Virus record (IMG/VR): IMGVR_UViG_3300025606_000003
Span: 43,036 to 107,035 of that record
DNA: 64,000 nucleotides
Strand: one strand, 5' to 3'
From: a virus
Lineage: Duplodnaviria; Caudoviricetes
Made by a program: the position numbers and the translations under genes. The notes beneath the pieces were generated by a model. It was not told the DNA's origin. It saw only the letters and a list, made by a program, of their open reading frames with translations, and ran no database searches. Below, one piece after another: positions 25,671 through 57,389 of this stretch; the first letter of the stretch is position 1, and every line of letters starts with the position of its first letter.

Positions 25671-26180
25671 TTAGAGATACCGTGAAATCTCATTACTGCA
25701 TACCCCCGCTGGCTCGCCAGACTCAAGCCAGCCGGGTTCTGCCAGTTCCGGATACACGGCAATCGCCCGCGGCGGCAGCGCAGTACCGGGCAAACACCAC
25801 AGATACTGCACGGTTGTTAATGTCACTGCAGCGCCAACCGGCACAACATGCGCCCCCATGTCACACAGCGAATTAAGTGTGACCGGGTCAGCCGCCAGAA
25901 ACCACACCTGCGGATTCGAAAGCATCGCGTACGGCAACCGGCAATATCCGGCTTTTGTCGGCAACAGCATCGCGCCGTGTTGCGCCACGACCTCGCAGCA
26001 CACGCTGTAGCCAATCGCCAGCGCGTTCTGTAAATAGCCCGGTGTGTTTTGCTGATCTTCCTGCACGCCAGAGATATTGCCGAGATGCGAAATCAGAATC
26101 AAGTTGCCGTGTTTGTGCTTGCGCTGCCCGGTGACCCAGCTGCTGATCAGTTTGCGATTTGAAACCTTGTTGCCCTTCAT
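25671..26180 (-). CDS. GDPD-like TIM-barrel protein
   Basis: LISHLGN...NTPGYLQNALAIGYSV resembles the ISHRGN...YI..A...GYDVE family. Confidence 0.55.
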   Translation of the reverse strand: MKGNKVSNRKLISSWVTGQRKHKHGNLILISHLGNISGVQEDQQNTPGYLQNALAIGYSVCCEVVAQHGAMLLPTKAGYCRLPYAMLSNPQVWFLAADPVTLNSLCDMGAHVVPVGAAVTLTTVQYLWCLPGTALPPRAIAVYPELAEPGWLESGEPAGVCSNEISRYL

Positions 26181-26194
26181 GGCTGTTTATCCTT

Positions 26195-26830
26195 TTAGCG
26201 GCAATATCGCAGGCGCTGCTCGCGCCAATATCTGGCCTGCGACGTGACCGGAATGTTGCTGTCGTCGTTGCCTTCTTGAAAACAGAGGGCGTATCGTAGC
26301 GGCATGCCCAGTGGCTGTCCATTGTGTTTGAGATAGTCGCGAGTCATCAGCACATCACAATGGTTGTAGCGCGAAATCGCGAGTAAATCCCGGCAGCCGG
26401 CTGCAGAAACCAGGTATCCGTGCGCGCCCCAGCCAGCTGAAACAATCCGCACGATGTACTTGGAAACCGGCTCCGTGCGGGCGTGCGAACTGTGGAATTG
26501 CCAGAAGCGCCACGTTGCCGGTAACTCGGCGGCAGCGCGCGGAAAGATATCTTTGAAGTCAGATGTGAATACAACGTCATCCTCGAACACGGCAACCGTC
26601 TCGTACCCGCGCTCGAGACAGAGTTTCCAGCAATGTCGGTGGCTGTCCAAGGCGCCTGCGTGCTTGCCATCAATGCCGCCGACTGTTTTAGCCGCGTATG
26701 TAATCGCAGACACACGCTCAACTGGCCAGGCCAGCTGCTGAAACCGCGGCAGCACCGATTCCCAGCGGTCGGCGCGCCGATCCATGTTGACGCAGAGCGC
26801 TGGAATGCGCCGATAGTCTACGAGGGCCAT
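26195..26830 (-). CDS. Glycosyltransferase family 25
   Basis: VNMDRRADRW, SH..W, VFEDD, WGAHGYLVS. Confidence 0.85.
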   Translation of the reverse strand: MALVDYRRIPALCVNMDRRADRWESVLPRFQQLAWPVERVSAITYAAKTVGGIDGKHAGALDSHRHCWKLCLERGYETVAVFEDDVVFTSDFKDIFPRAAAELPATWRFWQFHSSHARTEPVSKYIVRIVSAGWGAHGYLVSAAGCRDLLAISRYNHCDVLMTRDYLKHNGQPLGMPLRYALCFQEGNDDSNIPVTSQARYWREQRLRYCR

Positions 26831-26845
26831 GTTGCTGCCCCGCGA

Positions 26846-27247
26846 TCACAGATTCTTGGCAGCGATCAAACAGTCACGCGCTACAGCACGCAGCCAAAAC
26901 CATGTGCGGCGACAAAAAGAAGCTTTACCAGCAATCACGGCCGAGTAAGCATCGAACATGAGCCGCCGCCGGGCCTCGACCGAAACGGGATCTTGAAGGC
27001 GCGCCACTGCGCGCGCCGCGGACGCAAAAATGTACCGCGCAAACGTAGATTCAAAATCGCGCGCAGTAATAGTGCCGCCGGCATTGATGCCATCAAAAAC
27101 GATAGGCACATTTTGAGGGTCAAAATCTTTTTGCCAACCCGCGCCGCGCGGCCAGTGCGTCGAGTCAGGCCGCCACTCAGCGCGCGAAACCAATCGGGGC
27201 GGGATAATCGCGGAGTCATCTCGCCAAAATTTGCTTTCTGTAATCAC
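26846..27247 (-). CDS. Hypothetical protein
   Basis: AGGAG RBS, 133 aa. Confidence 0.6.
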   Translation of the reverse strand: MITESKFWRDDSAIIPPRLVSRAEWRPDSTHWPRGAGWQKDFDPQNVPIVFDGINAGGTITARDFESTFARYIFASAARAVARLQDPVSVEARRRLMFDAYSAVIAGKASFCRRTWFWLRAVARDCLIAAKNL

Positions 27248-27250
27248 AGT

Positions 27251-27616
27251 TCAGCTCCTTGTTACAGAATTTTCGTTGTCCGGTTTTTGTGCTGCTGCTT
27301 CTTCTTCGATCAAGCGCCGCAACACAACAACAGCCGCCTGCAAATCCACAGAAACACCGCTTTTGCCATCTTTGTCGCGTACTTGAATTGACGCGCCGCC
27401 GTCCGGTTGCGCAATAATTGCCCAGTTGTAAACGCCATTTTTACACTTGCGACTGCGCGCCGCAACATACACTGAATCGTGTTCAAAGCCTACGGTTACG
27501 TTCTCAACGGCGTTATCAATGGTGTTATCAACGGCCGGATTGCTAATCCACAAAAACGCCCTGGCTTTGTCCACCATAGACGCCAACATTGAAAAATGAA
27601 ACGGGGGCATATTCAT
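27251..27616 (-). CDS. Hypothetical protein
   Basis: AAGGAG RBS, 121 aa. Confidence 0.6.
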   Translation of the reverse strand: MNMPPFHFSMLASMVDKARAFLWISNPAVDNTIDNAVENVTVGFEHDSVYVAARSRKCKNGVYNWAIIAQPDGGASIQVRDKDGKSGVSVDLQAAVVVLRRLIEEEAAAQKPDNENSVTRS

Positions 27617-27641
27617 TGTTTAGCTCCTTGTAGCTTTTTAG

Positions 27642-28673
27642 TTAAAGAATCTTTGCCGCAATCAGGCACCCGCGGGCAACCGCGTGCAGCGGATCCCGAG
27701 CGTGCCGCACTTCTTTGACGGGCAGCGGAAAACCGCTGGCCGCCAATTTCTTCTCAAATACCGGCACAAAACCTTTGGCCTGGCTGGTGCCGCCCGCAAT
27801 CACCACCGGCAGCGGCTGTTTGAACTTCGGCAGCAGCTTGTGCCCGGTCATGGCTGCGGCAAGCTGTTTGGTGGTGTAGTCAATCAGGCGCACGTAATAG
27901 CTTGAAACAGCCGCCAGAATATGATTCTCGTTTGGCTGGCCGATCGTGAATTCGCCTTGTTCTTTCTCGGCTTGAACTACCGAGTCAGCCTCGGTAGTTG
28001 CCACAGCTGTCATCCGGTCGATCCAGTCGCCGGACTTAGTCGTGCTGAACATCACGGTCGGCTCGCCGTTGAGCATTACGCAGCAATTCACCATGCCCGC
28101 CCCGCAAGACAGCGCTACGCCTGTGTAATCATCTTGCTCGAGTTCGGAGTAGCACAGCGCCTCAGCTTCGTTGATTGCGCGGGCTTCGTAGCCACATTCG
28201 GCCAAAATGCCCTTTACAACGTCTTCGTGATACCCCACGTCAAAGTCGTCGTCTTCCTGGTCAACAGGCTGCGCTGGAATACAAAACACCAGCTTTTCGT
28301 TGGGCTGGCTGGCCTTGCCGCAGACCTGCTGCAGAATGAATGCCAGCACGCGCCGGGCGTCTTTTTCTTTCACAGACACAACGCCGCGGTGCATCGGCCG
28401 TTTCGCAGAGTCATTGCGCTCGATGGCTTTTTCGATGGCGTCTTTGCCCAACAGAATAAAGCTCCCGTCGGCATCTTTTACGAACACCCGCCCGGCCAGG
28501 CCCTTCTCGATCATCTTGGTAGCCACCGGCGTCGCGGGCTTGATCACGTAGAACGCGTCCCGAAAATCCGTGTAGTCCACGTTGCCGACGCGCACCTGGC
28601 TGGTGGTAGTGTTCGCAGCCGCGTCCTGCGCAAGCACAATAAAACTGGTACCGACGTCGAGTCCCTTGGCCAT
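27642..28673 (-). CDS. Actin-like ATPase (MreB/ParM/MamK superfamily)
   Basis: Phosphate-1 GLDVGTS, connect-1 INEAEAL, phosphate-2 SCGAGMVN, adenosine VIAGGTS, connect-2 PLHAVARG. Confidence 0.88.
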   Translation of the reverse strand: MAKGLDVGTSFIVLAQDAAANTTTSQVRVGNVDYTDFRDAFYVIKPATPVATKMIEKGLAGRVFVKDADGSFILLGKDAIEKAIERNDSAKRPMHRGVVSVKEKDARRVLAFILQQVCGKASQPNEKLVFCIPAQPVDQEDDDFDVGYHEDVVKGILAECGYEARAINEAEALCYSELEQDDYTGVALSCGAGMVNCCVMLNGEPTVMFSTTKSGDWIDRMTAVATTEADSVVQAEKEQGEFTIGQPNENHILAAVSSYYVRLIDYTTKQLAAAMTGHKLLPKFKQPLPVVIAGGTSQAKGFVPVFEKKLAASGFPLPVKEVRHARDPLHAVARGCLIAAKIL

Positions 28674-28676
28674 TTG

Positions 28677-29039
28677 TCAGCTCCTTTTGAGTTGGGCCAA
28701 CCTGTTGGCGGCCGAATCAATATCATCCTGCACGGTTTGTTTTTCGCCCAGCGCCACGGTCACTGGTTTTTCGAGGCCGGCTGTATTAACGTCTGTCACG
28801 AATTTCCGGTCGTCGATTGTGATCGGCTGCGGCTCGGCTGAACCTTTGACAAGCCACCGGCGCGGCTTTTCAATGGCGCCGGGCCTGGCCGGGCCGGAGC
28901 CTGCCGGTCCGTTTTCCAGGCGGCGCAGTTTCTCGTGCAGAGAATCAACCCGGCCGAGCAGATAGCCCAGCAGAAACGCGCCCGCCGCCAGTAAGCACCA
29001 CTGCGTCATGATGTGCGCCCGTTTTTGCCAGTCGGTCAT
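28677..29039 (-). CDS. N-terminally membrane-anchored protein upstream of actin
   Basis: TM LLAAGAFLLGYLLG, short coiled coil, C-terminal amphipathic helix; 3 nt before the actin ATG. Confidence 0.65.
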   Translation of the reverse strand: MTDWQKRAHIMTQWCLLAAGAFLLGYLLGRVDSLHEKLRRLENGPAGSGPARPGAIEKPRRWLVKGSAEPQPITIDDRKFVTDVNTAGLEKPVTVALGEKQTVQDDIDSAANRLAQLKRS

Positions 29040-29124
29040 TGATATCTATCCGACGCCAACGGCCGCCAGATCTACAGCGGTTTTAGCAAAAACAGGTAAC
29101 GTCTCACAAACTGCGGGAGCATCA

Positions 29125-29376
29125 TTAATTGCCCATGTACCGCACGGCGATGTAGGTGCCGAGAAATGCGCCGGCCGCCAGCGGAATCAAATACCACGGG
29201 TTGTGAAGGTAGCTCATCGTGCCGTAGGCGCCAAGACTGTACAGCACCGAGCTAATAGCGCTGGCGGCAAACGCCTGCTTGCGACTGACGCAGAGCACGT
29301 ACAGCGCATACAACACATCAAAAAACACGTAGACCACAAAAACAAGCAGCGCTGTCAACCAGTTGAAGTCATTCAT
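29125..29376 (-). CDS. Small three-TM membrane protein
   Basis: Hydrophobic throughout; YLIPLAAGAFLGTYIAV. Confidence 0.65.
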   Translation of the reverse strand: MNDFNWLTALLVFVVYVFFDVLYALYVLCVSRKQAFAASAISSVLYSLGAYGTMSYLHNPWYLIPLAAGAFLGTYIAVRYMGN

Positions 29377-29378
29377 GA

Positions 29379-30374
29379 TCAAAACTTTGGCTCGTATTCC
29401 AAGTGGTCCATGTACCGCTCAATTTGCCGGGCCACGTCATCGACAGTGATCATGCTCATGCAGTACGCGATCGCCTGACCGTCTTCCATAAATGTCGGCA
29501 GCTCGCACAGGCTGTTGTTTTTTGCGTCGTTGTCAGCAAGCGGGATCACACGGCTTTTCCAACAACCGCCCTGTTGGCAACACTTGAGCATGCCGCCAGT
29601 GTGCAGAAACTGGTGATCTGGGCCCTGCTCCCAGTGCGATGGCTCGCGGCCGCCCGCGAGCGTAATGTTCGCCCGGCTCTTACGGCCAAATCTTGGATGC
29701 GCGGGCACGGCGTAGGCCAGGTGCATTGGAAAACTCACGCCGGAGATCACGCCAAACGAGTTGTAAACCAGGCGGATCATCTGCCGGATATCAGTGCGGC
29801 CCACAAAGTTCAGCACATTGTCGCCATGGAGCAGCGGGTGCGTGTGCTCCTTGGCGCCGACTTGGACGAACCAAACATTGGGAAACCGCGAGACTAGCTC
29901 CTGATAGCGCGTGAAGCTCCAGGCTTTGGCGGTGTAGTCACTCTTGTGCCCGGCGTTGAGAATCCAGTACGGCACGTCTTTGCCGATCATTTCGTGCACG
30001 CCGGAAAACCACGCATGCTCTTCGGGCAGAATCTTGATCGCCCCGGCAAACTTGGCGGCTTTGATAGCCACGCCCAGCTTTTCACCGAGATACTCGTTGA
30101 AGCTTTCGATGAAGCGCACCGGGTGCGAGTTTGAGCGATGAATGCTGGGATACTCTGCCTGAATGACCGTGACGTCCGGGTCAGATTTGTCTAGCCGCGT
30201 GATGAGCGGGTTGCCGTGAAAGATCTCTTTGGCCGGGCAGTCCACGTCGGTAATGAACTTGCCCGGATGACTTTCGTGCAGGCTGGTCACAGCGTAGAGC
30301 AACATCACGATGTCGCCCGGGCTTTGCCAGTTCCGGAAGATAATCTTGCGCGGCACGGCGGCAGTAATCGACAT
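29379..30374 (-). CDS. Glycosyltransferase family 9 (heptosyltransferase-like)
   Basis: SPGDIVML, NPLI, KAWSFTRY, NFVGRTDIRQ, SFPMHLAYA. Confidence 0.8.
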   Translation of the reverse strand: MSITAAVPRKIIFRNWQSPGDIVMLLYAVTSLHESHPGKFITDVDCPAKEIFHGNPLITRLDKSDPDVTVIQAEYPSIHRSNSHPVRFIESFNEYLGEKLGVAIKAAKFAGAIKILPEEHAWFSGVHEMIGKDVPYWILNAGHKSDYTAKAWSFTRYQELVSRFPNVWFVQVGAKEHTHPLLHGDNVLNFVGRTDIRQMIRLVYNSFGVISGVSFPMHLAYAVPAHPRFGRKSRANITLAGGREPSHWEQGPDHQFLHTGGMLKCCQQGGCWKSRVIPLADNDAKNNSLCELPTFMEDGQAIAYCMSMITVDDVARQIERYMDHLEYEPKF

Positions 30375-48046: not shown

Positions 48047-49576
48047 CTACCCGATAGTTAGCAACTCGTAGCGGATATGCCTGCCAAACTCACGCGGGGT
48101 GATTGCGGCAGCTTTGCGCAGCGGTTTTTTATCTTTTTGCTCAGGTTTTTTTGTGCTTGTGTTTTTTTTATCGTCACGGTCGGGCATTTTGATCGTAGCG
48201 GGCGAAGTATCTTTGTCTTTTTCGCTGTGCGACTTGGCGGGTTTTTGAGGCTCGTTGACGTACTTTCCGCCACGGCGGCGCGACTCCATCAGGCCAAACC
48301 GTTTACCCTGCAGCATGCCGTAAAGCGGCAGCATGGCCGCAAACGGCCCTGCAAACGGCGCTGCGGCAGCCCCCATGTAGCTGCCATACCCAGCCGGCAG
48401 CATTTTTTGCCGGTCGTCTAGAATCTTGTTCAGTTTGGCCGGGTTGTCTTTGTACGTACGCCGCAGATTCTTTTCGCTCAGTCTGTTGGCTTGCGCTTCT
48501 TGATACAGCGCGTGAAACATGCCGACCGTAGGCACCATGCGGCCAGCACCGTAAACATCGTGCAGTAAACCTTTACCCTGCCGCTTGAGCCATGTTTTTA
48601 CTTTGTTTTCGTTGTCGGAATATTCCGGAACTTTGTTGCTGTTGAAATCAAGCGCGTGCCCAATTTCGTGCGTCAGTACCGCCGGCTTGTCGCCCATCAA
48701 ATACGTGCTATTTGTAGCCGGGTTAAACAATGAGCCACGCAGTAACGCGGCATACAACTGCGTCGCGGGATGCTGCGCCAAGCCGAGTAGCTTTCCAGCA
48801 ACCGATGTTCGCGGGTTCTTGAAGATACGCGGAATCTCGCGAAAGAAATCACCGCCGCCCAGGTACACACGGTGATCTTTGAGCGCTTCCGGATCCGCGC
48901 GCTCCATGTCTTTGGCTAACTGCGTAAGTTTCTGTGCGCGCGCGTCGTCAGGGCTGATCTCTGGCGTGAGATAACCGCCGTTCGCGCCTTGCCACTGTGT
49001 CGGATTCACGTGACTGCGCAGCGACATGATTGTGCCGCCTGGAAATGCGCCAAGATGCCCAACCGTTGAGGCCAATGCGCGCGCACCCAGACCGCCCCGC
49101 ATGACCTCGAGCGCCGCAGATTTGTCCTGCAAACTGGTTACGGCGCTGGTTGTTGGGCTGGGTACAGCTGCCTGTTTTGGCTGCTGCCCGTAAATTTCAT
49201 CGTAGGCTGCGTATACGGGCAGTTTACTGTGATCGCTGTACAACTCGCTGATTTTGTGCTTTGGCGTAATACCCGGAGGCGCCGCCAGCGAAAAAAAGTG
49301 CGGAAACACTTCGTCATTGAGTCCGGTTAACGGCCGTTTTTGCAGCAAATCCGCGTATGCCTCGGCCGGCACAGGATCGCCATACCGCACGTTTGTAAAT
49401 CCAAGTTTGTAGCCGGCTTTGTTCGCATGCGCAGCGGCTGCGCGCAAGTACTCTGGAAATTTCTTGTAATCCGTTTTGTCGTCAAACAACCACGGCGTAC
49501 GGTCAGAGAGCCCGTAATCGTCCGCGGCGCCGTATGCCCGCTTTATGTTGTTAGCAACAGATGTTTCAGGCGGCAT
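48047..49576 (-). CDS. Modular virion protein with zincin-like HExxH domain
   Basis: VLTHEIGHALD and QEAQAN; IKRA, PKQAA, DKSAA, RKAAA motifs. Confidence 0.7.
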   Translation of the reverse strand: MPPETSVANNIKRAYGAADDYGLSDRTPWLFDDKTDYKKFPEYLRAAAAHANKAGYKLGFTNVRYGDPVPAEAYADLLQKRPLTGLNDEVFPHFFSLAAPPGITPKHKISELYSDHSKLPVYAAYDEIYGQQPKQAAVPSPTTSAVTSLQDKSAALEVMRGGLGARALASTVGHLGAFPGGTIMSLRSHVNPTQWQGANGGYLTPEISPDDARAQKLTQLAKDMERADPEALKDHRVYLGGGDFFREIPRIFKNPRTSVAGKLLGLAQHPATQLYAALLRGSLFNPATNSTYLMGDKPAVLTHEIGHALDFNSNKVPEYSDNENKVKTWLKRQGKGLLHDVYGAGRMVPTVGMFHALYQEAQANRLSEKNLRRTYKDNPAKLNKILDDRQKMLPAGYGSYMGAAAAPFAGPFAAMLPLYGMLQGKRFGLMESRRRGGKYVNEPQKPAKSHSEKDKDTSPATIKMPDRDDKKNTSTKKPEQKDKKPLRKAAAITPREFGRHIRYELLTIG

Positions 49577-49603: not shown

Positions 49604-49637
49604 TTAGATATCCCGGTTAGATATCAATTAGATATCA
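49604..49637. repeat. Triple TTAGATATC cluster
   Basis: GATATC at 49607, 49620 and 49631, each preceded by TTA, essentially intergenic. Confidence 0.9.
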
Positions 49638-55189: not shown

Positions 55190-55236
55190 GAGTTCACCTC
55201 TACTTAGAGTTAGATATCAATTCAACAAAGAACAAA

Positions 55237-55309
55237 AGCCGGTGGCCGGGAACGATCCGGCGACACGCTGATTACAAATCAGCTGCTCTACCAGCTGAGC
55301 TACACCGGC
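55237..55309 (-). tRNA. tRNA-Thr(UGU)
   Basis: Cloverleaf GCCGGTG/CACCGGC, loop TT-TGT-AA; atypical T-loop ATCGTTC; no encoded CCA. Confidence 0.85.
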
Positions 55310-55332
55310 CTGACCGACCTGCGCGGCGCAGC

Positions 55333-55632
55333 TTAGTTCTGCGCCACGCCCACCTCGAGCTTCCTGGGATCCGGGTACTCGCTGGGGTGGGCGATGTGGC
55401 GGAACCTTGCCCGCCCCGTGTTCGAGTGATTCCCGAACACGTCTCGCGCGTGCATTGCCGCGCGGAGCTTCTCCATTGCCGACTCGATCAGCAGCCACCA
55501 AGCGTAGCTGAGCTCGCCGCGGGCCTGCACGTCGGCGTTGACCTGCTCGACAACCCCGTCGAGGTTGGCGAGTTCTTGCTTTACTCGGTCGTTGTAGTAG
55601 TCCGCCAGCCGTTCCATTTCGTCAGCGGCCAT
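55333..55632 (-). CDS. Hypothetical protein
   Basis: AGGAGG RBS, 99 aa. Confidence 0.65.
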   Translation of the reverse strand: MAADEMERLADYYNDRVKQELANLDGVVEQVNADVQARGELSYAWWLLIESAMEKLRAAMHARDVFGNHSNTGRARFRHIAHPSEYPDPRKLEVGVAQN

Positions 55633-55776
55633 GAAACCCTCCTAGTAAAAGAACCAATCGAACACAACGTCTCGAACAGGGCCGTGGTCCGGCGGGCATT
55701 TTGATGCCCTCCCACAGTTTAAGGAGGATAACTTCCCCCTGTTTTTCGCGGCGCTCTTGCTGCGCCGCCGAGACGA

Positions 55777-56119
55777 TGGAGGTGGCGGGAATCGAACCCG
55801 CGTCCCGTGATGATTCAGAACAGACGTCTACGTGCGTGTGCTGTTGTTACTCACACAACAGCCAAGGCCAGCCGATTATCGGCGTCAGGTGGGCTACCAC
55901 CATCTTTGGCTGTCTTTCCAGCCTGCCGGCCGTCTTCCCGGCTTCCAGCGTGAGGGGCGAAGGTGTCACGCGCACCTCCCGGTCACTGCACTCAGGCAGC
56001 GAGAGCGGGAGCGCTGTTGAAGGCGCCAGATAACTGTGGGCGATTTTTAACGTGGCCATTCGTCCAACCACGGCACGCAATCTGAACCTCTTGCATCCGG
56101 TCGAAACCTTTACACCCCC
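55777..56119 (-). ncRNA. ssrA: tmRNA, tag (A)GAFNSAPALAA
   Basis: 5' GGGGGTG..TTCGAC pairs with 3' GGTTCGATTCCCGCCACCTCCA (G3-U70); tag ORF 56027-55992 ends ALAA-stop. Confidence 0.92.
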
Positions 56120-56535
56120 GCATAGCCTGCAAACACTTTGTTTATCGCATAATCGGCAGCTGCATGTACGTTTTTTGCTTGCCCGTTTTTTGACGGTTGT
56201 TTGCGCAGCGTCAACGTGTTGACAGTTTTACGCAACACGTCGGACTTAACCGCGTATACACACCCGTCTGACAAATCGCAAATTGCGAAATAGTCAAACA
56301 TGTCGGGTTGGTACGTGAATTTGTAACCGGGGCCGCTTTTTCTCAGCGGCAAGCGCAGACAGCCCGATACAGGCGTAATCGCTTTGCACTGAAAACGCAG
56401 CAACTTTCCGTTTTTTTCAGCGACGAGGTCAATTTTAGAGATATCGCCTTCTTCGCTAAACACGGAAAAACCAAGCTGGGCTAAAGCCAGACTGGCGGCA
56501 AATTGCCCGATGTTGCCTTTAATCTTACTGTGCAT
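56110..56535 (-). CDS. Free-standing PD-(D/E)XK endonuclease
   Basis: KGNIGQ, IDLVAEK...RFQCK, Y....FDYF; stop overlaps the tmRNA 5' end. Confidence 0.75.
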   Translation of the reverse strand: MHSKIKGNIGQFAASLALAQLGFSVFSEEGDISKIDLVAEKNGKLLRFQCKAITPVSGCLRLPLRKSGPGYKFTYQPDMFDYFAICDLSDGCVYAVKSDVLRKTVNTLTLRKQPSKNGQAKNVHAAADYAINKVFAGYAGV

Positions 56536-56578
56536 ATTTGTCTTCCTTGACACCGTGTGATTAGTAATCTCACGGTTG

Positions 56579-56607
56579 AATATACACAGCGTTGCGCAAA
56601 GCTACAA
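56579..56607 (-). promoter_or_regulatory. Sigma70-like promoter
   Basis: TTGTAG-N17-TATATT upstream of the endonuclease and tmRNA. Confidence 0.45.
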
Positions 56608-56612
56608 CCTAA

Positions 56613-56684
56613 TAGGGGCGTCCGGAGTTGCGCCGGATTCACAGGATTAAAAGTCGAGTGCATCACTAACAATGCTTCGCCCCC
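56613..56684 (-). tRNA. Atypical tRNA-Lys(UUU)
   Basis: Acceptor GGGGGCG/CGCCCCT, loop CT-TTT-AA; two mismatches in the anticodon stem; T-loop CGCAACT. Confidence 0.6.
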
Positions 56685-56691
56685 GATAAAA

Positions 56692-57036
56692 TCATCGACT
56701 TGCGCGGCCCAGCTTACTCGCAAAATTACGCCGCGCAAGCCAAATTCTTGTCTGCCACGCCTCCATGCGGTGGCGCAGCCAGCGGCGAACGCGGCGATAT
56801 GGCGTGTTCATGCCATTCTTGGTCATGTAGGCGTGGGTGCACCACATGACTACTTCATCGCTGGCGCCGTCCAGCGTGGTGTTGCCGCACGACATGCACC
56901 GATGGCACGGCACATTTTGCACCGGAACGTCGTGCAGTGCGCCGTCGAGCCGAAGCTTCCAGGTATCGGTGAGCGTGCACTGCTCAATCCGACCCCCGCA
57001 GCGGTAACACTGCAGAGACTTGTAAGTTGCTGGCAT
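56692..57036 (-). CDS. YgiT/MqsA-type Zn-finger protein without HTH
   Basis: CYRCGG...VPVQNVPCHRCMSCG; GGAGG RBS. Confidence 0.7.
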   Translation of the reverse strand: MPATYKSLQCYRCGGRIEQCTLTDTWKLRLDGALHDVPVQNVPCHRCMSCGNTTLDGASDEVVMWCTHAYMTKNGMNTPYRRVRRWLRHRMEAWQTRIWLARRNFASKLGRASR

Positions 57037-57056
57037 GCAACCTCCCTTTTTTTAAA

Positions 57057-57140
57057 TGGCCGAGGCGGGAATCGAACCCGCACGGGATTACTCCCACGGG
57101 ATTTTAAATCCCGTGCGTCTGCCGGTTTCGCCACTCGGCC
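57057..57140 (-). tRNA. tRNA-Leu(UAA)
   Basis: Cloverleaf with long variable arm, loop TT-TAA-AA, GGTTCGATT. Confidence 0.92.
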
Positions 57141-57149
57141 CAAGGCCAG

Positions 57150-57223
57150 TGGGCGACAAGGGACTCGAACCCCTAACCCCCTCGGTGTAAACGAGGTGCT
57201 CTGACCAATTGAGCTAGTCGCCC
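57150..57223 (-). tRNA. tRNA-Val(UAC)
   Basis: Canonical cloverleaf, loop TT-TAC-AC. Confidence 0.92.
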
Positions 57224-57314
57224 GGAAGCGCGGCTGGTTGAAAAATGGCAACCATTTAACAAGTGTAACACCACGGGTTTTTACACCCTGCGAATCACTT
57301 GTGCACCGCGCGAT

Positions 57315-57389
57315 TGACCCCGTGGGGATTTGAACCCCAGTCCCCACCGTGAAAGGGTGGTGTCCTAGACCAGGCTAGACGACGGGGCC
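57315..57389 (-). tRNA. tRNA-Glu(UUC)
   Basis: Canonical cloverleaf, loop CT-TTC-AC. Confidence 0.92.

What the first reader, a model, noticed from the sequence alone, without database searches (positions are those of the whole stretch)
27642..29049. Phage actin-like ATPase operon with a membrane-anchored partner and the palindrome on its start codon
Seen: all five actin-fold motifs; a 120-aa N-terminal-TM protein ends 3 nt before it; ATTGATATCTAT overlaps that gene's ATG. Known: nucleus-forming jumbo phages position DNA with the tubulin PhuZ, and type II plasmid partitioning uses actin + adaptor + centromere. Inference: an actin-based, membrane-tethered genome or capsid positioning system, possibly using the dispersed palindromes as cis sites. 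This would be notable if the host is a planctomycete, since these lack FtsZ. The partner shows no recognisable DNA-binding motif, so any adaptor is unidentified.
Basis: partly seen in the sequence, partly recalled or inferred. Interest (0 to 1): 0.8.

Follow-up and report, generated by a model that had tools for sequence, protein, structure and literature searches.

The report
Jumbo-phage actin with membrane anchor
An uncultured freshwater jumbo phage carries a very strongly conserved actin of the "volactin" family. It sits next to a small membrane protein whose tail is predicted to plug into the actin, so these phages probably build membrane-anchored actin filaments of their own, which I found in no paper; the palindrome at the start codon is a separate, genome-wide signal.

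Summary
ORF 27642-28673(-) is a full-length actin-fold protein (Pfam Volactin PF25216, E 1e-61). A 120-aa protein with an N-terminal membrane helix ends 3 nt before it. ATTGATATCTAT overlaps that ORF's first ATG.

The window is part of a 107-kb IMG/VR phage contig, about half of a ~200-kb genome, from freshwater. Hundreds of related phage contigs carry the actin at 77-90% identity. In a whole-genome comparison shared ORFs had a median of 50%. In 37 of 40 loci the partner gene lies directly upstream, at only ~35% identity but with an invariant ..SKLAQLK tail.

A complex model docks that tail on the actin (score 0.74, best control 0.00). By sequence profile the nearest solved proteins are the filament formers MamK, BeeR and MreB, not ParM.

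The centromere idea fails. W3-GATATC-W3 occurs 2 to 40 times in actin-bearing relatives, is never at the partner's start in them, and in this genome is enriched upstream of many genes. That pattern fits a transcription signal.

The host is unknown and nothing points to a planctomycete. One syntenic relative lacks the module at this slot.

This scan has flagged the same module in over 75 other genomes. I found no paper describing it.

The parts
27642..28673 (-). Actin-fold ATPase of the volactin family (343 aa)
   Evidence: Pfam PF25216, E 1.1e-61, full length. AlphaFold2 model pLDDT 95.4. Nearest solved folds are MreB, BeeR and MamK. 77-90% identical in hundreds of phage contigs.
28677..29039 (-). 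Partner gene: small single-pass membrane protein (120 aa from the first ATG; 110 aa if it starts at Met11, ATG 29007-29009)
   Evidence: No Pfam or PHROG family. A homologue lies directly upstream of the actin in 37 of 40 full-flank loci at about 35% identity. A profile search finds 409 uncharacterised proteins of 100-130 aa.
28950..29012 (-). Membrane helix of the partner (residues 10-30), ending in the family motif LGY..GR.D
   Evidence: Hydropathy maximum 1.72 here, 1.94 on average over 38 homologues. K+R count is 0.24 on the N side and 2.29 on the C side, so the C-terminal part should face the cytoplasm. The model shows a helix at residues 3-42.
28680..28751 (-). Conserved C-terminal tail of the partner (residues 97-120, ending ..NRLAQLKRS), the predicted actin-docking helix
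   Evidence: G98, L114 and K118 are invariant; D105, I107, A115 and L117 nearly so. Helix at residues 107-119. Residues 97-118 form the interface in the complex model.
28681..28686 (-). AAGGAG ribosome-binding site of the actin gene, inside the partner's last codons; the partner's stop and the actin's ATG are 3 nt apart
   Evidence: Read directly from the sequence. The same AAGGAGCT site recurs before the two genes downstream (family D2).
29038..29049 (.). One copy of the genome-wide W3-GATATC-W3 near-palindrome, at the 5' end of the partner gene; probably a transcription signal, not part of the actin machinery
   Evidence: 27 copies in the 107-kb contig with 0 for the control pattern. By my count 8 of the 27 lie in the 6% of the genome that is non-coding, 0-60 nt (two further) upstream of gene starts (its own tally is 9, P 1.9e-5). 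Not conserved at this place in relatives.
26846..27247 (-). Downstream ORF 'dn2' (133 aa), found only in this phage, whose last 15 residues copy the actin's C-terminal helix (LRAVARDCLIAAKNL against LHAVARGCLIAAKIL)
   Evidence: BLASTP E 3e-4 to actin residues 286-343. hhalign gives 73% identity over 15 columns. 80% identity to the actin ends of relatives. Absent from 40 of 40 related loci. Its role is unknown.

Best explanation
The two genes form a phage-encoded cytoskeletal module.

The 343-aa protein is an actin of the volactin family (MamK/MreB-like branch) that most likely polymerises with ATP in the infected cell.

The upstream gene encodes a single-pass membrane protein with a very short outside N-terminus. 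A flexible linker and a conserved C-terminal helix face the cytoplasm. That helix is predicted to dock into the groove formed by the actin's C-terminal helix, the helix after connect 1, and a hairpin of subdomain IIA. This is the groove that ParR uses on ParM.

The partner would therefore tether actin monomers or filament ends to the inner membrane. The result would be membrane-anchored filaments that organise the infected cell, for instance by positioning replicating DNA or assembling particles.

The two genes are translated together: the actin's ribosome-binding site is inside the partner's last codons.

Shown: family membership, fold, conservation, synteny, topology signal. Inferred: polymerisation, tail docking, and the cellular role.

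The palindrome at the 5' end is one copy of a genome-wide signal of this phage lineage, probably a promoter or operator marking the start of the transcription unit. It is not a centromere.
For: Family and fold:
- Pfam Volactin, E 1e-61, full length.
- Model pLDDT 95.4.
- Best solved folds are MreB/Mbl, BeeR and MamK, TM-score 0.63-0.71.
- A profile of 37 homologues finds MamK at 1.4e-15, BeeR at 1e-9, MreB at 1e-7 and FtsA at 3e-6, and no ParM at E<=1.
- The founding member, VolA of Haloferax volcanii, forms dynamic filaments that touch the membrane by their tips (PMC10869688). It sits next to a 4-TM CdpA-like membrane protein, HVO_2016 (PMC12126565).

Constraint:
- 77-90% identity across more than 100 clusters and 80 viral loci.
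- Against a complete 204.6-kb relative it is, by my reading, the second most conserved real gene among 126 shared ORFs: third in the table after a 308-aa ORF and that ORF's antisense overlap, 79.6% against a median of 50%.
- About 17 of the 150 best 50%-identity clusters are ~700-aa forms that match in two stretches. The one I scanned (P0121) is interrupted by an intein. From general knowledge, inteins favour highly conserved genes.

Partner:
- Present directly upstream in 37 of 40 loci.
- The tail motif persists in phages whose actin is only 52% and 44% identical.
- The positive-inside signal puts the tail in the cytoplasm.

Complex model:
- Score 0.74 (runs 0.70-0.78); best of 3 controls 0.00.
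- This mark was reached by 58 of 80 solved complexes and 2 of 110 mismatched pairs. The counts hold only roughly because my own alignments were used.
- The runs agree in at least 35% of contacts; the partner's pLDDT is at least 48.
- Contacts: partner 97-118 with actin 29-37, 113-117, 175-183, 202-204 and 327-342.

Context: no tubulin gene in this contig or in four near-complete or complete relatives.
Against: - No experiment exists.
- Phosphate 2 lacks the usual Asp (S189, invariant), so ATP turnover may be unusual.
- Complexes of actin-fold proteins with partner peptides are in the PDB (PilM:PilN 5eou; ParM-ParR from my own knowledge). The docking pass may therefore lean on memory.
- The partner's own fold is uncertain: pLDDT is 49-59 in the complex runs and 55-65 across the linker of the single-chain model.
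- Taken as a whole, the predicted interface is not more conserved than the rest of the actin (permutation p 0.84).
- One syntenic relative (G006, 119 kb, 58% complete) and a second contig from the same sample have other genes in this slot and no actin anywhere on the contig. The module may be dispensable or movable.
- Nothing shows what cargo, if any, is positioned.
Confidence: 0.6

Rival explanations
1. A non-filamentous membrane complex. The actin-fold protein acts as a scaffold or chaperone-like ATPase held at the membrane by the peptide of a single-pass protein, as PilM is held by PilN or as FtsA sits in the divisome. It would serve some envelope process such as export, lysis timing or glycan synthesis.
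For: PilM, EutJ and FtsA are among the fold and profile matches. The architecture, a single-pass membrane protein whose conserved cytoplasmic peptide binds an actin-fold protein, is the same as PilM:PilN (5eou). Phosphate 2 lacks the usual Asp. The pair lies in a variable island of glycosyltransferases.
Against: The best profile matches are filament formers: MamK at 1.4e-15 against PilM at 0.016 or worse. The family's founder polymerises in vivo (PMC10869688). The glycosyltransferases are not linked to the pair across relatives: GT25 in 5 of 40 loci, GT9 in 10, mannosyltransferase in 3. About 80% identity over the whole length is what is typical of polymer-forming proteins with many contact surfaces.
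Confidence: 0.15
2. Host take-over. The phage actin co-assembles with or displaces the host's MreB, FtsA or other actin, or rebuilds cell shape or size, so that the infected cell stops dividing or grows larger to give a bigger burst. The partner brings it to the membrane where the host machinery works.
For: MreB-like sequence motifs (GGD..D, AEK, connect 2 DPL.AVA.G). Membrane tethering. Volactin itself acts on cell shape in Haloferax (PMC10869688).
Against: Identity to MreB is only 13-19%, which makes co-polymerisation unlikely. The actin is nearly invariant in relatives whose G+C ranges from 41% to 61% and which therefore probably have different hosts, whereas a host-targeting protein should track its target. 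The partner exposes only about 5 residues outside the membrane, so it cannot reach periplasmic wall enzymes.
Confidence: 0.15
3. One reading: a type II (ParMRC-like) partition or positioning system in which the dispersed GATATC palindromes are the cis sites that the filament moves.
For: The palindromes are real and highly enriched. Dispersed 12-16-bp palindromes inside genes resemble parS sites. One copy touches the operon's 5' end, and the four closest relatives carry one inside the partner gene at -156.
Against: Site counts in actin-bearing genomes are 40, 40, 27, 21, 8 and 2. The last is near chance, and a complete relative shows no alternative enriched palindrome. The partner has no DNA-binding domain. 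There are no iterated repeats next to the operon. ParM is not detectably related. By my count 8 of 27 sites lie in the 6% non-coding DNA just upstream of unrelated genes (its own tally is 9, P 1.9e-5), which fits a transcription signal.
Confidence: 0.05

Closest known systems
Volactin (VolA, HVO_2015) of Haloferax volcanii with its neighbour HVO_2016 (CdpA-like, 4 TM); Pfam PF25216
   Same: Same Pfam family, matched over the full length. An actin gene lies next to a membrane-protein gene. VolA forms dynamic filaments that touch the membrane by their tips (PMC10869688; PMC12126565).
   Different: This one is viral, not archaeal and chromosomal. The partner is an unrelated ~110-aa single-pass protein with no family. 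The role of VolA (rod-to-disk shape change) cannot be carried over to a phage. Direct identity to VolA was not measured because I had no sequence reference for it.
ParM / ParR / parC type II plasmid partition
   Same: An actin-fold protein plus an adaptor encoded just upstream. The adaptor's C-terminal helix is predicted to enter the groove between subdomains IA and IIA. That this is ParR's mode of binding is from my own knowledge of the ParM-ParR structures.
   Different: ParM is not detectably related. The adaptor here is a membrane protein without a DNA-binding domain. There is no centromere of iterated repeats.
MamK (with MamJ/MamY) of magnetotactic bacteria
   Same: The nearest solved protein by sequence profile (E 1.4e-15) and among the best fold matches (TM-score 0.71). 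It is a filament that positions membrane-bound cargo.
   Different: About 17% identity. No magnetosome genes are present. The partner is unrelated.
PhuZ tubulin spindle of nucleus-forming jumbo phages
   Same: A cytoskeletal polymer encoded by a jumbo phage. It is the functional analogy proposed here.
   Different: A different fold (tubulin). No tubulin gene is found in this contig or in four related genomes at least 96% complete. Whether these phages form a nucleus-like compartment was not tested.
AlpC / AlpA of the Corynebacterium prophage CGP3
   Same: A phage-encoded actin-like protein needed for efficient viral DNA replication (PMC4446434; abstract seen).
   Different: AlpC works with a DNA-binding adaptor, which is my own knowledge. 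The protein here is of the volactin family with a membrane adaptor. Relatedness to AlpC was not tested because I had no sequence reference.
PilM / PilN of type IV pili
   Same: An actin-fold ATPase bound by a short conserved cytoplasmic peptide of a single-pass membrane protein (PDB 5eou).
   Different: PilN binds by its N-terminal peptide; here the tail is C-terminal. PilM matches only weakly (E 0.016-0.1). No pilus genes are present.
BeeR (PDB 8r2n), a bacterial actin that forms filaments
   Same: The only PDB chain found with the single sequence (E 2e-4). Second by profile (1e-9). TM-score 0.70.
   Different: 19% identity. It is cellular. No partner of this kind is known to me.

Membership tests
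Volactin family (Pfam PF25216) | Scores above the curated cut-off of the family model over its full length | tested here: met
   209.6 bits against a cut-off of 35; residues 1-340 on model positions 1-321 of 321. Confirmed on the genome copy at 206.6 bits.
Volactin family (Pfam PF25216) | Better match to this family than to sister actin families (MreB_Mbl, Salactin) | tested here: met
   MreB_Mbl scores 20.2 bits, below its cut-off of 27. Salactin scores 25 bits or less in close relatives, below its cut-off.
Volactin family (Pfam PF25216) | Forms dynamic filaments in cells, as shown for VolA | not testable with these tools
   Needs purified protein or live imaging. VolA data are in PMC10869688.
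Actin/ASKHA fold, polymerising branch | Five nucleotide-binding motifs (phosphate 1, connect 1, phosphate 2, adenosine, connect 2) | tested here: met
   All five are located, and their key residues are invariant in 37 homologues. Phosphate 2 has Ser189 in place of the usual Asp.
Actin/ASKHA fold, polymerising branch | Four-subdomain fold closest to known filament formers | tested here: met
   pLDDT 95.4. The top PDB matches are MreB/Mbl, BeeR and MamK. The profile order is MamK, BeeR, MreB, FtsA.
Type II partition system (ParMRC) | ParM-type actin | tested here: not met
   No ParM chain appears at E<=1 with a 37-sequence profile against all PDB sequences. There is no ParM-family Pfam match.
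Type II partition system (ParMRC) | DNA-binding adaptor (ParR, ribbon-helix-helix) | tested here: not met
   The partner has no Pfam or PHROG family. The model shows one membrane helix, a coil and one short helix. The Atlas gave no usable hit.
Type II partition system (ParMRC) | Centromere of iterated repeats next to the operon, conserved with it | tested here: not met
   No repeat array in 26800-29500. The single palindrome at the 5' end is absent there in 51 distinct relatives. Genome-wide counts are uncoupled from the presence of the actin.
PilM/PilN-type membrane complex | PilM-family ATPase with pilus assembly genes nearby | tested here: not met
   PilM scores only E 0.016-0.1. The neighbours are glycosyltransferases, PhoH, a nuclease and a 2H phosphoesterase.
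Nucleus-forming jumbo phages (PhuZ spindle) | Tubulin homologue PhuZ | tested here: not met
   PF00091 found in 0 of 5 records, four of them at least 96% complete; the control search found it in 13 of 14 cellular genomes.
Nucleus-forming jumbo phages (PhuZ spindle) | Shell protein chimallin | not tested
   I had no model or reference sequence by reference. The nearest cultured phages share only about 25% identity in RNA polymerase.

The most novel reading that the evidence does not exclude
A large, globally distributed clade of ~200-kb freshwater jumbo phages, which has no tubulin, builds its own dynamic actin cytoskeleton. The filaments would be held by their ends at the inner membrane through a dedicated single-pass anchor, and would use polymerisation to place the replicating genome or the assembly site. 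That would be an actin-based counterpart of the PhuZ spindle and the first viral use of the MamK/volactin branch of actins.
Probability: 0.3. Interest if true: 0.85.

Novelty: new variant of a known kind. Interest (0 to 1): 0.68.

Why it matters
Phage-built cytoskeletons are known mainly from the tubulin PhuZ of nucleus-forming phages, plus a few ParM/Alp-type actins of prophages and plasmids. Here an actin from a different branch, until now studied only in a haloarchaeon, turns out to be one of the most conserved genes of a widespread clade of uncultured jumbo phages, and it comes with its own membrane anchor.

If it polymerises, it gives a second, independent route by which viruses organise a bacterial cell. 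It also gives a compact two-protein system for studying how actin filaments are coupled to membranes: a 343-aa actin and a tail of about 25 residues.

The very strong conservation makes the actin a good marker gene for this phage clade.

Tried and rejected
- PHROGs gave no family for the actin or the partner.
- The 'phages' collection holds only two distant relatives, uncultured 485-kb and 595-kb phages at 33-35% identity. No cultured phage carries the gene.
- BFVD has no close viral structure; the best matches are giant-virus Hsp70s and Bacillus phage G Gp506, TM-score 0.55-0.62.
- A search of cellular genomes with the diverse alignment failed because no stretch was conserved enough.
- The single-protein scan of cellular genomes found only six short contigs, in MAGs labelled with unrelated taxa. 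This gives no host.
- Cluster look-up of ten distant homologues gave almost no names.
- No RNA holder is listed among public runs; the DNA holders are freshwater metagenomes of 2017.
- The Atlas search with the partner gave no usable hit.
- Interface conservation test: neutral (p 0.84). The predicted interface mixes the near-invariant groove (entropy about 0.26 bits by my estimate) with the actin's most variable hairpin, residues 16-33.
- Maximal-order Markov expectation for GATATC: uninformative, because the sub-words are themselves part of the motif.
- dn1 (27251-27616) shows no relation to actin.
- The region 26100-27641 is not a decayed second actin beyond the 15-residue tail of dn2.
- Sigma-70-type promoter and terminator scans around the operon are at chance level.
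- Literature: six full-text searches found no paper on volactin-type actins in phages.
Full report
WHAT THE WINDOW IS. The window is bases 43036-107035 of a 107,035-base IMG/VR virus record that CheckV rates 52% complete. Almost all long ORFs lie on the minus strand. There are five tRNA genes, a phage tail-tip domain, an RNA polymerase beta'-like gene, PhoH, a PD-(D/E)XK nuclease, a ferritin-like protein and several glycosyltransferases. Relatives with direct terminal repeats are 198-205 kb, so this is about half of a ~200-kb jumbo phage. Public runs that hold the stretch are freshwater metagenomes. The nearest cultured phages share only about 25% identity in the polymerase subunit, and the actin has no cultured-phage relative. 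The host is unknown.

THE OBSERVATION. ORF 27642-28673(-) encodes 343 residues that match Pfam Volactin (PF25216) end to end (E 1.1e-61, 209.6 bits, cut-off 35). MreB_Mbl stays below its cut-off. All five actin-fold motifs are there, and their key residues are invariant in an alignment of 37 homologues down to 31% identity. Phosphate 2 reads SCGAG, with an invariant Ser189 where MreB and actin have Asp.

ORF 28677-29039(-) encodes 120 residues with one hydrophobic helix. Its stop codon is separated from the actin ATG by CAA, and the actin's AAGGAG site lies in the partner's last codons. ATTGATATCTAT sits at 29038-29049 over the first ATG. One caveat: most homologues of the partner start right before the membrane helix, so Met11 (29007-29009) may be the real start, 30 nt past the palindrome.

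THE ACTIN. With a 37-row alignment AlphaFold2 gives a confident model (pLDDT 95.4, pTM 0.93). Foldseek against the PDB ranks MreB/Mbl, BeeR (8r2n) and MamK (5ljv) first (TM-score 0.63-0.71, 13-19% identity). A profile of the alignment against all PDB sequences finds MamK (1.4e-15), BeeR (1.2e-9), MreB (1.6e-7) and FtsA (3e-6). PilM and EutJ come only at 0.02-0.1, and ParM not at all up to E=1.

The protein belongs to the volactin family within the MamK/MreB-like branch, not to ParM/Alp. The founder of the family, VolA of Haloferax volcanii, forms dynamic filaments that bridge the cytoplasm and touch the membrane by their tips (PMC10869688). Its gene lies next to HVO_2016, a four-TM CdpA-like protein (PMC12126565).

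HOW CONSTRAINED IT IS. A word-indexed search found 2077 homologues; the best 120 clusters are 76-90% identical (excluding the query's own cluster), and many sit on contigs of 180-220 kb. IMG/VR holds 389 encoding stretches, and the best 80 loci are 77-86% identical. An exhaustive search of cluster representatives found 963 clusters at E<=1e-3.

I compared every ORF of the 107-kb contig with a complete 204.6-kb relative. The actin is 79.6% identical against a median of 50% for 126 shared ORFs. It stands third in the table, after a 308-aa ORF of unknown family (96%) and an antisense ORF that overlaps that one; I therefore count it as the second most conserved real gene, ahead of the RNA polymerase subunits.

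About 17 of the 150 best representatives are ~700-aa forms that match in two stretches. The one I scanned (P0121) is the actin interrupted by an intein with a LAGLIDADG domain.

THE PARTNER. By tblastn, a homologue lies directly upstream of the actin in 76 of 80 loci and in 37 of the 40 loci with full flanks, at only about 35% identity. The alignment of 38 members shows four parts:
- a short N-terminus
- a hydrophobic helix ending in LGY..GR.D
- a variable linker
- a conserved C-terminal block, I-D...K.V..I.T....LG.....D.I..S.SKLAQLKGK

Lys and Arg are rare before the helix (0.24 on average) and common after it (2.29). By the positive-inside rule the C-terminal part should therefore face the cytoplasm. 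On its own the protein models as a long N-terminal helix, a coil and a helix at 107-119.

A profile search finds 409 proteins of 100-130 aa, none with a Pfam domain. Two phages whose actins are only 52% and 44% identical also carry a small upstream ORF ending in ..INKLKELKKR and ..IDKLRQLKKAKG. The tail thus travels with the actin well beyond this clade.

DO THEY BIND? I folded the actin together with residues 70-120 of the partner, both as alignments. The verdict was that the model supports binding but does not show it.
- Score 0.74 (three runs, 0.70-0.78); best of three controls 0.00.
- That mark was reached by 58 of 80 solved complexes and 2 of 110 mismatched pairs. The counts hold only roughly because my own alignments were used.
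- The runs agree in at least 35% of contacts, and the partner's pLDDT is at least 48.
- Partner residues 97-118 touch actin residues 29-37, 113-117, 175-183, 202-204 and 327-342.

By the usual topology of the fold, those actin segments are the C-terminal helix, the helix after connect 1 and a hairpin of subdomain IIA. That is the groove between subdomains IA and IIA. Mapping them onto the groove is my inference from secondary-structure order, not a measured superposition.

Complexes of actin-fold proteins with partner peptides have been solved (PilM:PilN; ParM-ParR from my own knowledge), so part of the pass may be memory of such complexes. The groove residues are nearly invariant among 120 phage actins, while the hairpin at 16-33, which touches the variable part of the tail, is the most variable stretch of the actin. 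Taken together, the interface is not more conserved than the rest (p 0.84).

THE SURROUNDINGS. Across relatives the backbone runs: PhoH, nuclease, ferritin-like, [variable genes], partner, actin, [variable genes], two small proteins, 2H phosphoesterase. The glycosyltransferases around the pair in this window are present in only 3-10 of 40 loci. The two genes just downstream (27251-27616 and 26846-27247) are in none. The pair therefore sits in a variable island, and the glycan genes are neighbours by accident rather than partners.

I also sampled the clade with a different marker, RNA polymerase beta'. By my count from the contig coordinates, the slot is covered in 19 contigs, and 17 of them have the actin. 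One 119-kb contig (58% complete) and a 38-kb contig from the same sample have a deaminase, a methyltransferase-like gene and two other ORFs between the same flanking glycosyltransferases, and no actin anywhere on the contig. The module may be elsewhere in the missing part of that genome, or it may be dispensable.

THE PALINDROME. The motif is real: W3-GATATC-W3 occurs 27 times in the 107-kb contig, against 0 for the reversed control. It is not tied to the actin.
- Five relatives that all carry the actin have 40, 40, 21, 8 and 2 copies. The last is near my rough chance estimate of about 0.4.
- A complete relative with 8 copies shows no other enriched palindrome that could have taken over the role.
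- No relative has a copy at the partner's start. The four closest have one at -156 inside the partner gene, over the K-I-S-I-D codons, inherited together.
- In this genome, by my count 8 of the 27 copies lie in the 6% of the DNA that is non-coding, 0-60 nt (two further) upstream of unrelated genes. The script flagged 9 (P 1.9e-5), but one of those lies inside the GT25 gene. The perfect AAAGATATCTTT copies lie inside genes, in the window read as K-D-I-F.

I read the copy at 29038-29049 as a transcription signal (promoter or operator) of this phage lineage that marks the 5' end of the partner-actin unit. This is inference only.

EXPLANATION AND RIVALS. The best-supported reading is a phage-built, membrane-anchored actin filament system (confidence 0.6 for the physical module, less for any particular role). 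Three rivals remain:
- a non-filamentous PilM/PilN-like membrane complex (0.15)
- interference with or rebuilding of the host's own actin-dependent shape or division machinery (0.15)

No tubulin gene is present in this contig or in four relatives at least 96% complete. If these phages need a positioning polymer, the actin is the candidate.

NOVELTY. Six full-text searches found volactin papers only for haloarchaea and found phage actins only of the AlpC type. This scan, however, has noted the same module in more than 75 other genomes, and several follow-up agents reached the same reading. I used those notes as leads and re-tested their main claims here.

- the explicit uncoupling of the palindrome from the actin
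- the conservation rank of the actin
- the relative that lacks the module at the slot
- the downstream ORF that copies the actin's C-terminal helix

I class the finding as a new variant of a known kind: a phage-encoded cytoskeleton, in a known actin family, with a new partner family.

Noticed in passing
whole contig; window sites e.g. 466, 4485, 11362, 19111, 26543, 33945, 35637, 49617, 55210, 59910, 62805: W3-GATATC-W3 near-palindromes fall into two classes. Perfect (C)AAAGATATCTTT(G) copies lie inside genes, in the window read as K-D-I-F. A/T-mixed copies (ATTGATATCTAA and similar) lie 0-60 nt (two further) upstream of gene starts. By my count 8 of 27 are in the 6% non-coding DNA (the script tallied 9). 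Counts vary from 2 to 40 among relatives. This looks like a lineage-specific promoter or operator, or the site of an unknown DNA-binding protein.
   Followed up: partly
window 49607-49636: Three GATATC copies sit within 30 nt (GATATCTAATTGATATCTAACCGGGATATCTAA on the minus strand), 31-55 nt upstream of the gene that starts at 49576. This is the densest cluster of the motif in the window.
   Followed up: no
window 26846-27247 (-): This ORF is found only in this phage (0 of 40 relatives). It ends with a 15-residue copy of the actin's C-terminal helix, in which most third codon positions differ, and has weak similarity back to the adenosine motif. It is either a remnant of a recombined actin gene or a small mimic of the surface that the partner's tail is predicted to touch.
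   Followed up: partly
P0121 scanned; by length and two-stretch match also P0133, P0151, P0168, P0186, P0214 and others: About 17 of the 150 best cluster representatives of the actin are ~700-aa forms that match in two stretches. The one scanned (P0121) holds an intein (Intein_splicing plus LAGLIDADG) inserted near residue 204.
   Followed up: partly
G000:C1:36480-37406 (-), i.e. L099:6480-7406, just outside the window: A 308-aa ORF with no Pfam family is 96% identical to its counterpart in a relative whose shared ORFs have a median identity of 50%. It is the most conserved gene of the genome.
   Followed up: partly
L124:10904-13724 (G006): A syntenic relative has a deaminase-like gene, a methyltransferase-like gene, a 136-aa ORF and a 430-aa ORF in place of tm85, partner, actin and the two downstream ORFs, between the same GT9-like and GT25 genes. 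No actin is found on its 119 kb.
   Followed up: partly
P0234, P0154, P0163, P0177, P0192, P0197, P0262, P0264, P0265: By eye, distant members of the volactin family carry N-terminal extensions that look like an HU/IHF-type DNA-binding domain, a ParB-like helix-turn-helix region, or an MJ0042-type zinc ribbon. This hints that other members are coupled directly to DNA.
   Followed up: no
window 29125-29382 (-): An 85-aa multi-pass membrane protein overlaps the end of the GT9-like gene and is 77% conserved in 13 of 40 relatives. It travels with the glycosyltransferase, not with the actin pair.
   Followed up: partly
window 55236-57389 (-): A cluster of five tRNA genes (Thr-TGT, Lys-TTT, Leu-TAA, Val-TAC, Glu-TTC). 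All read A/T-ending codons, which would be rare in a 58% G+C genome.
   Followed up: no
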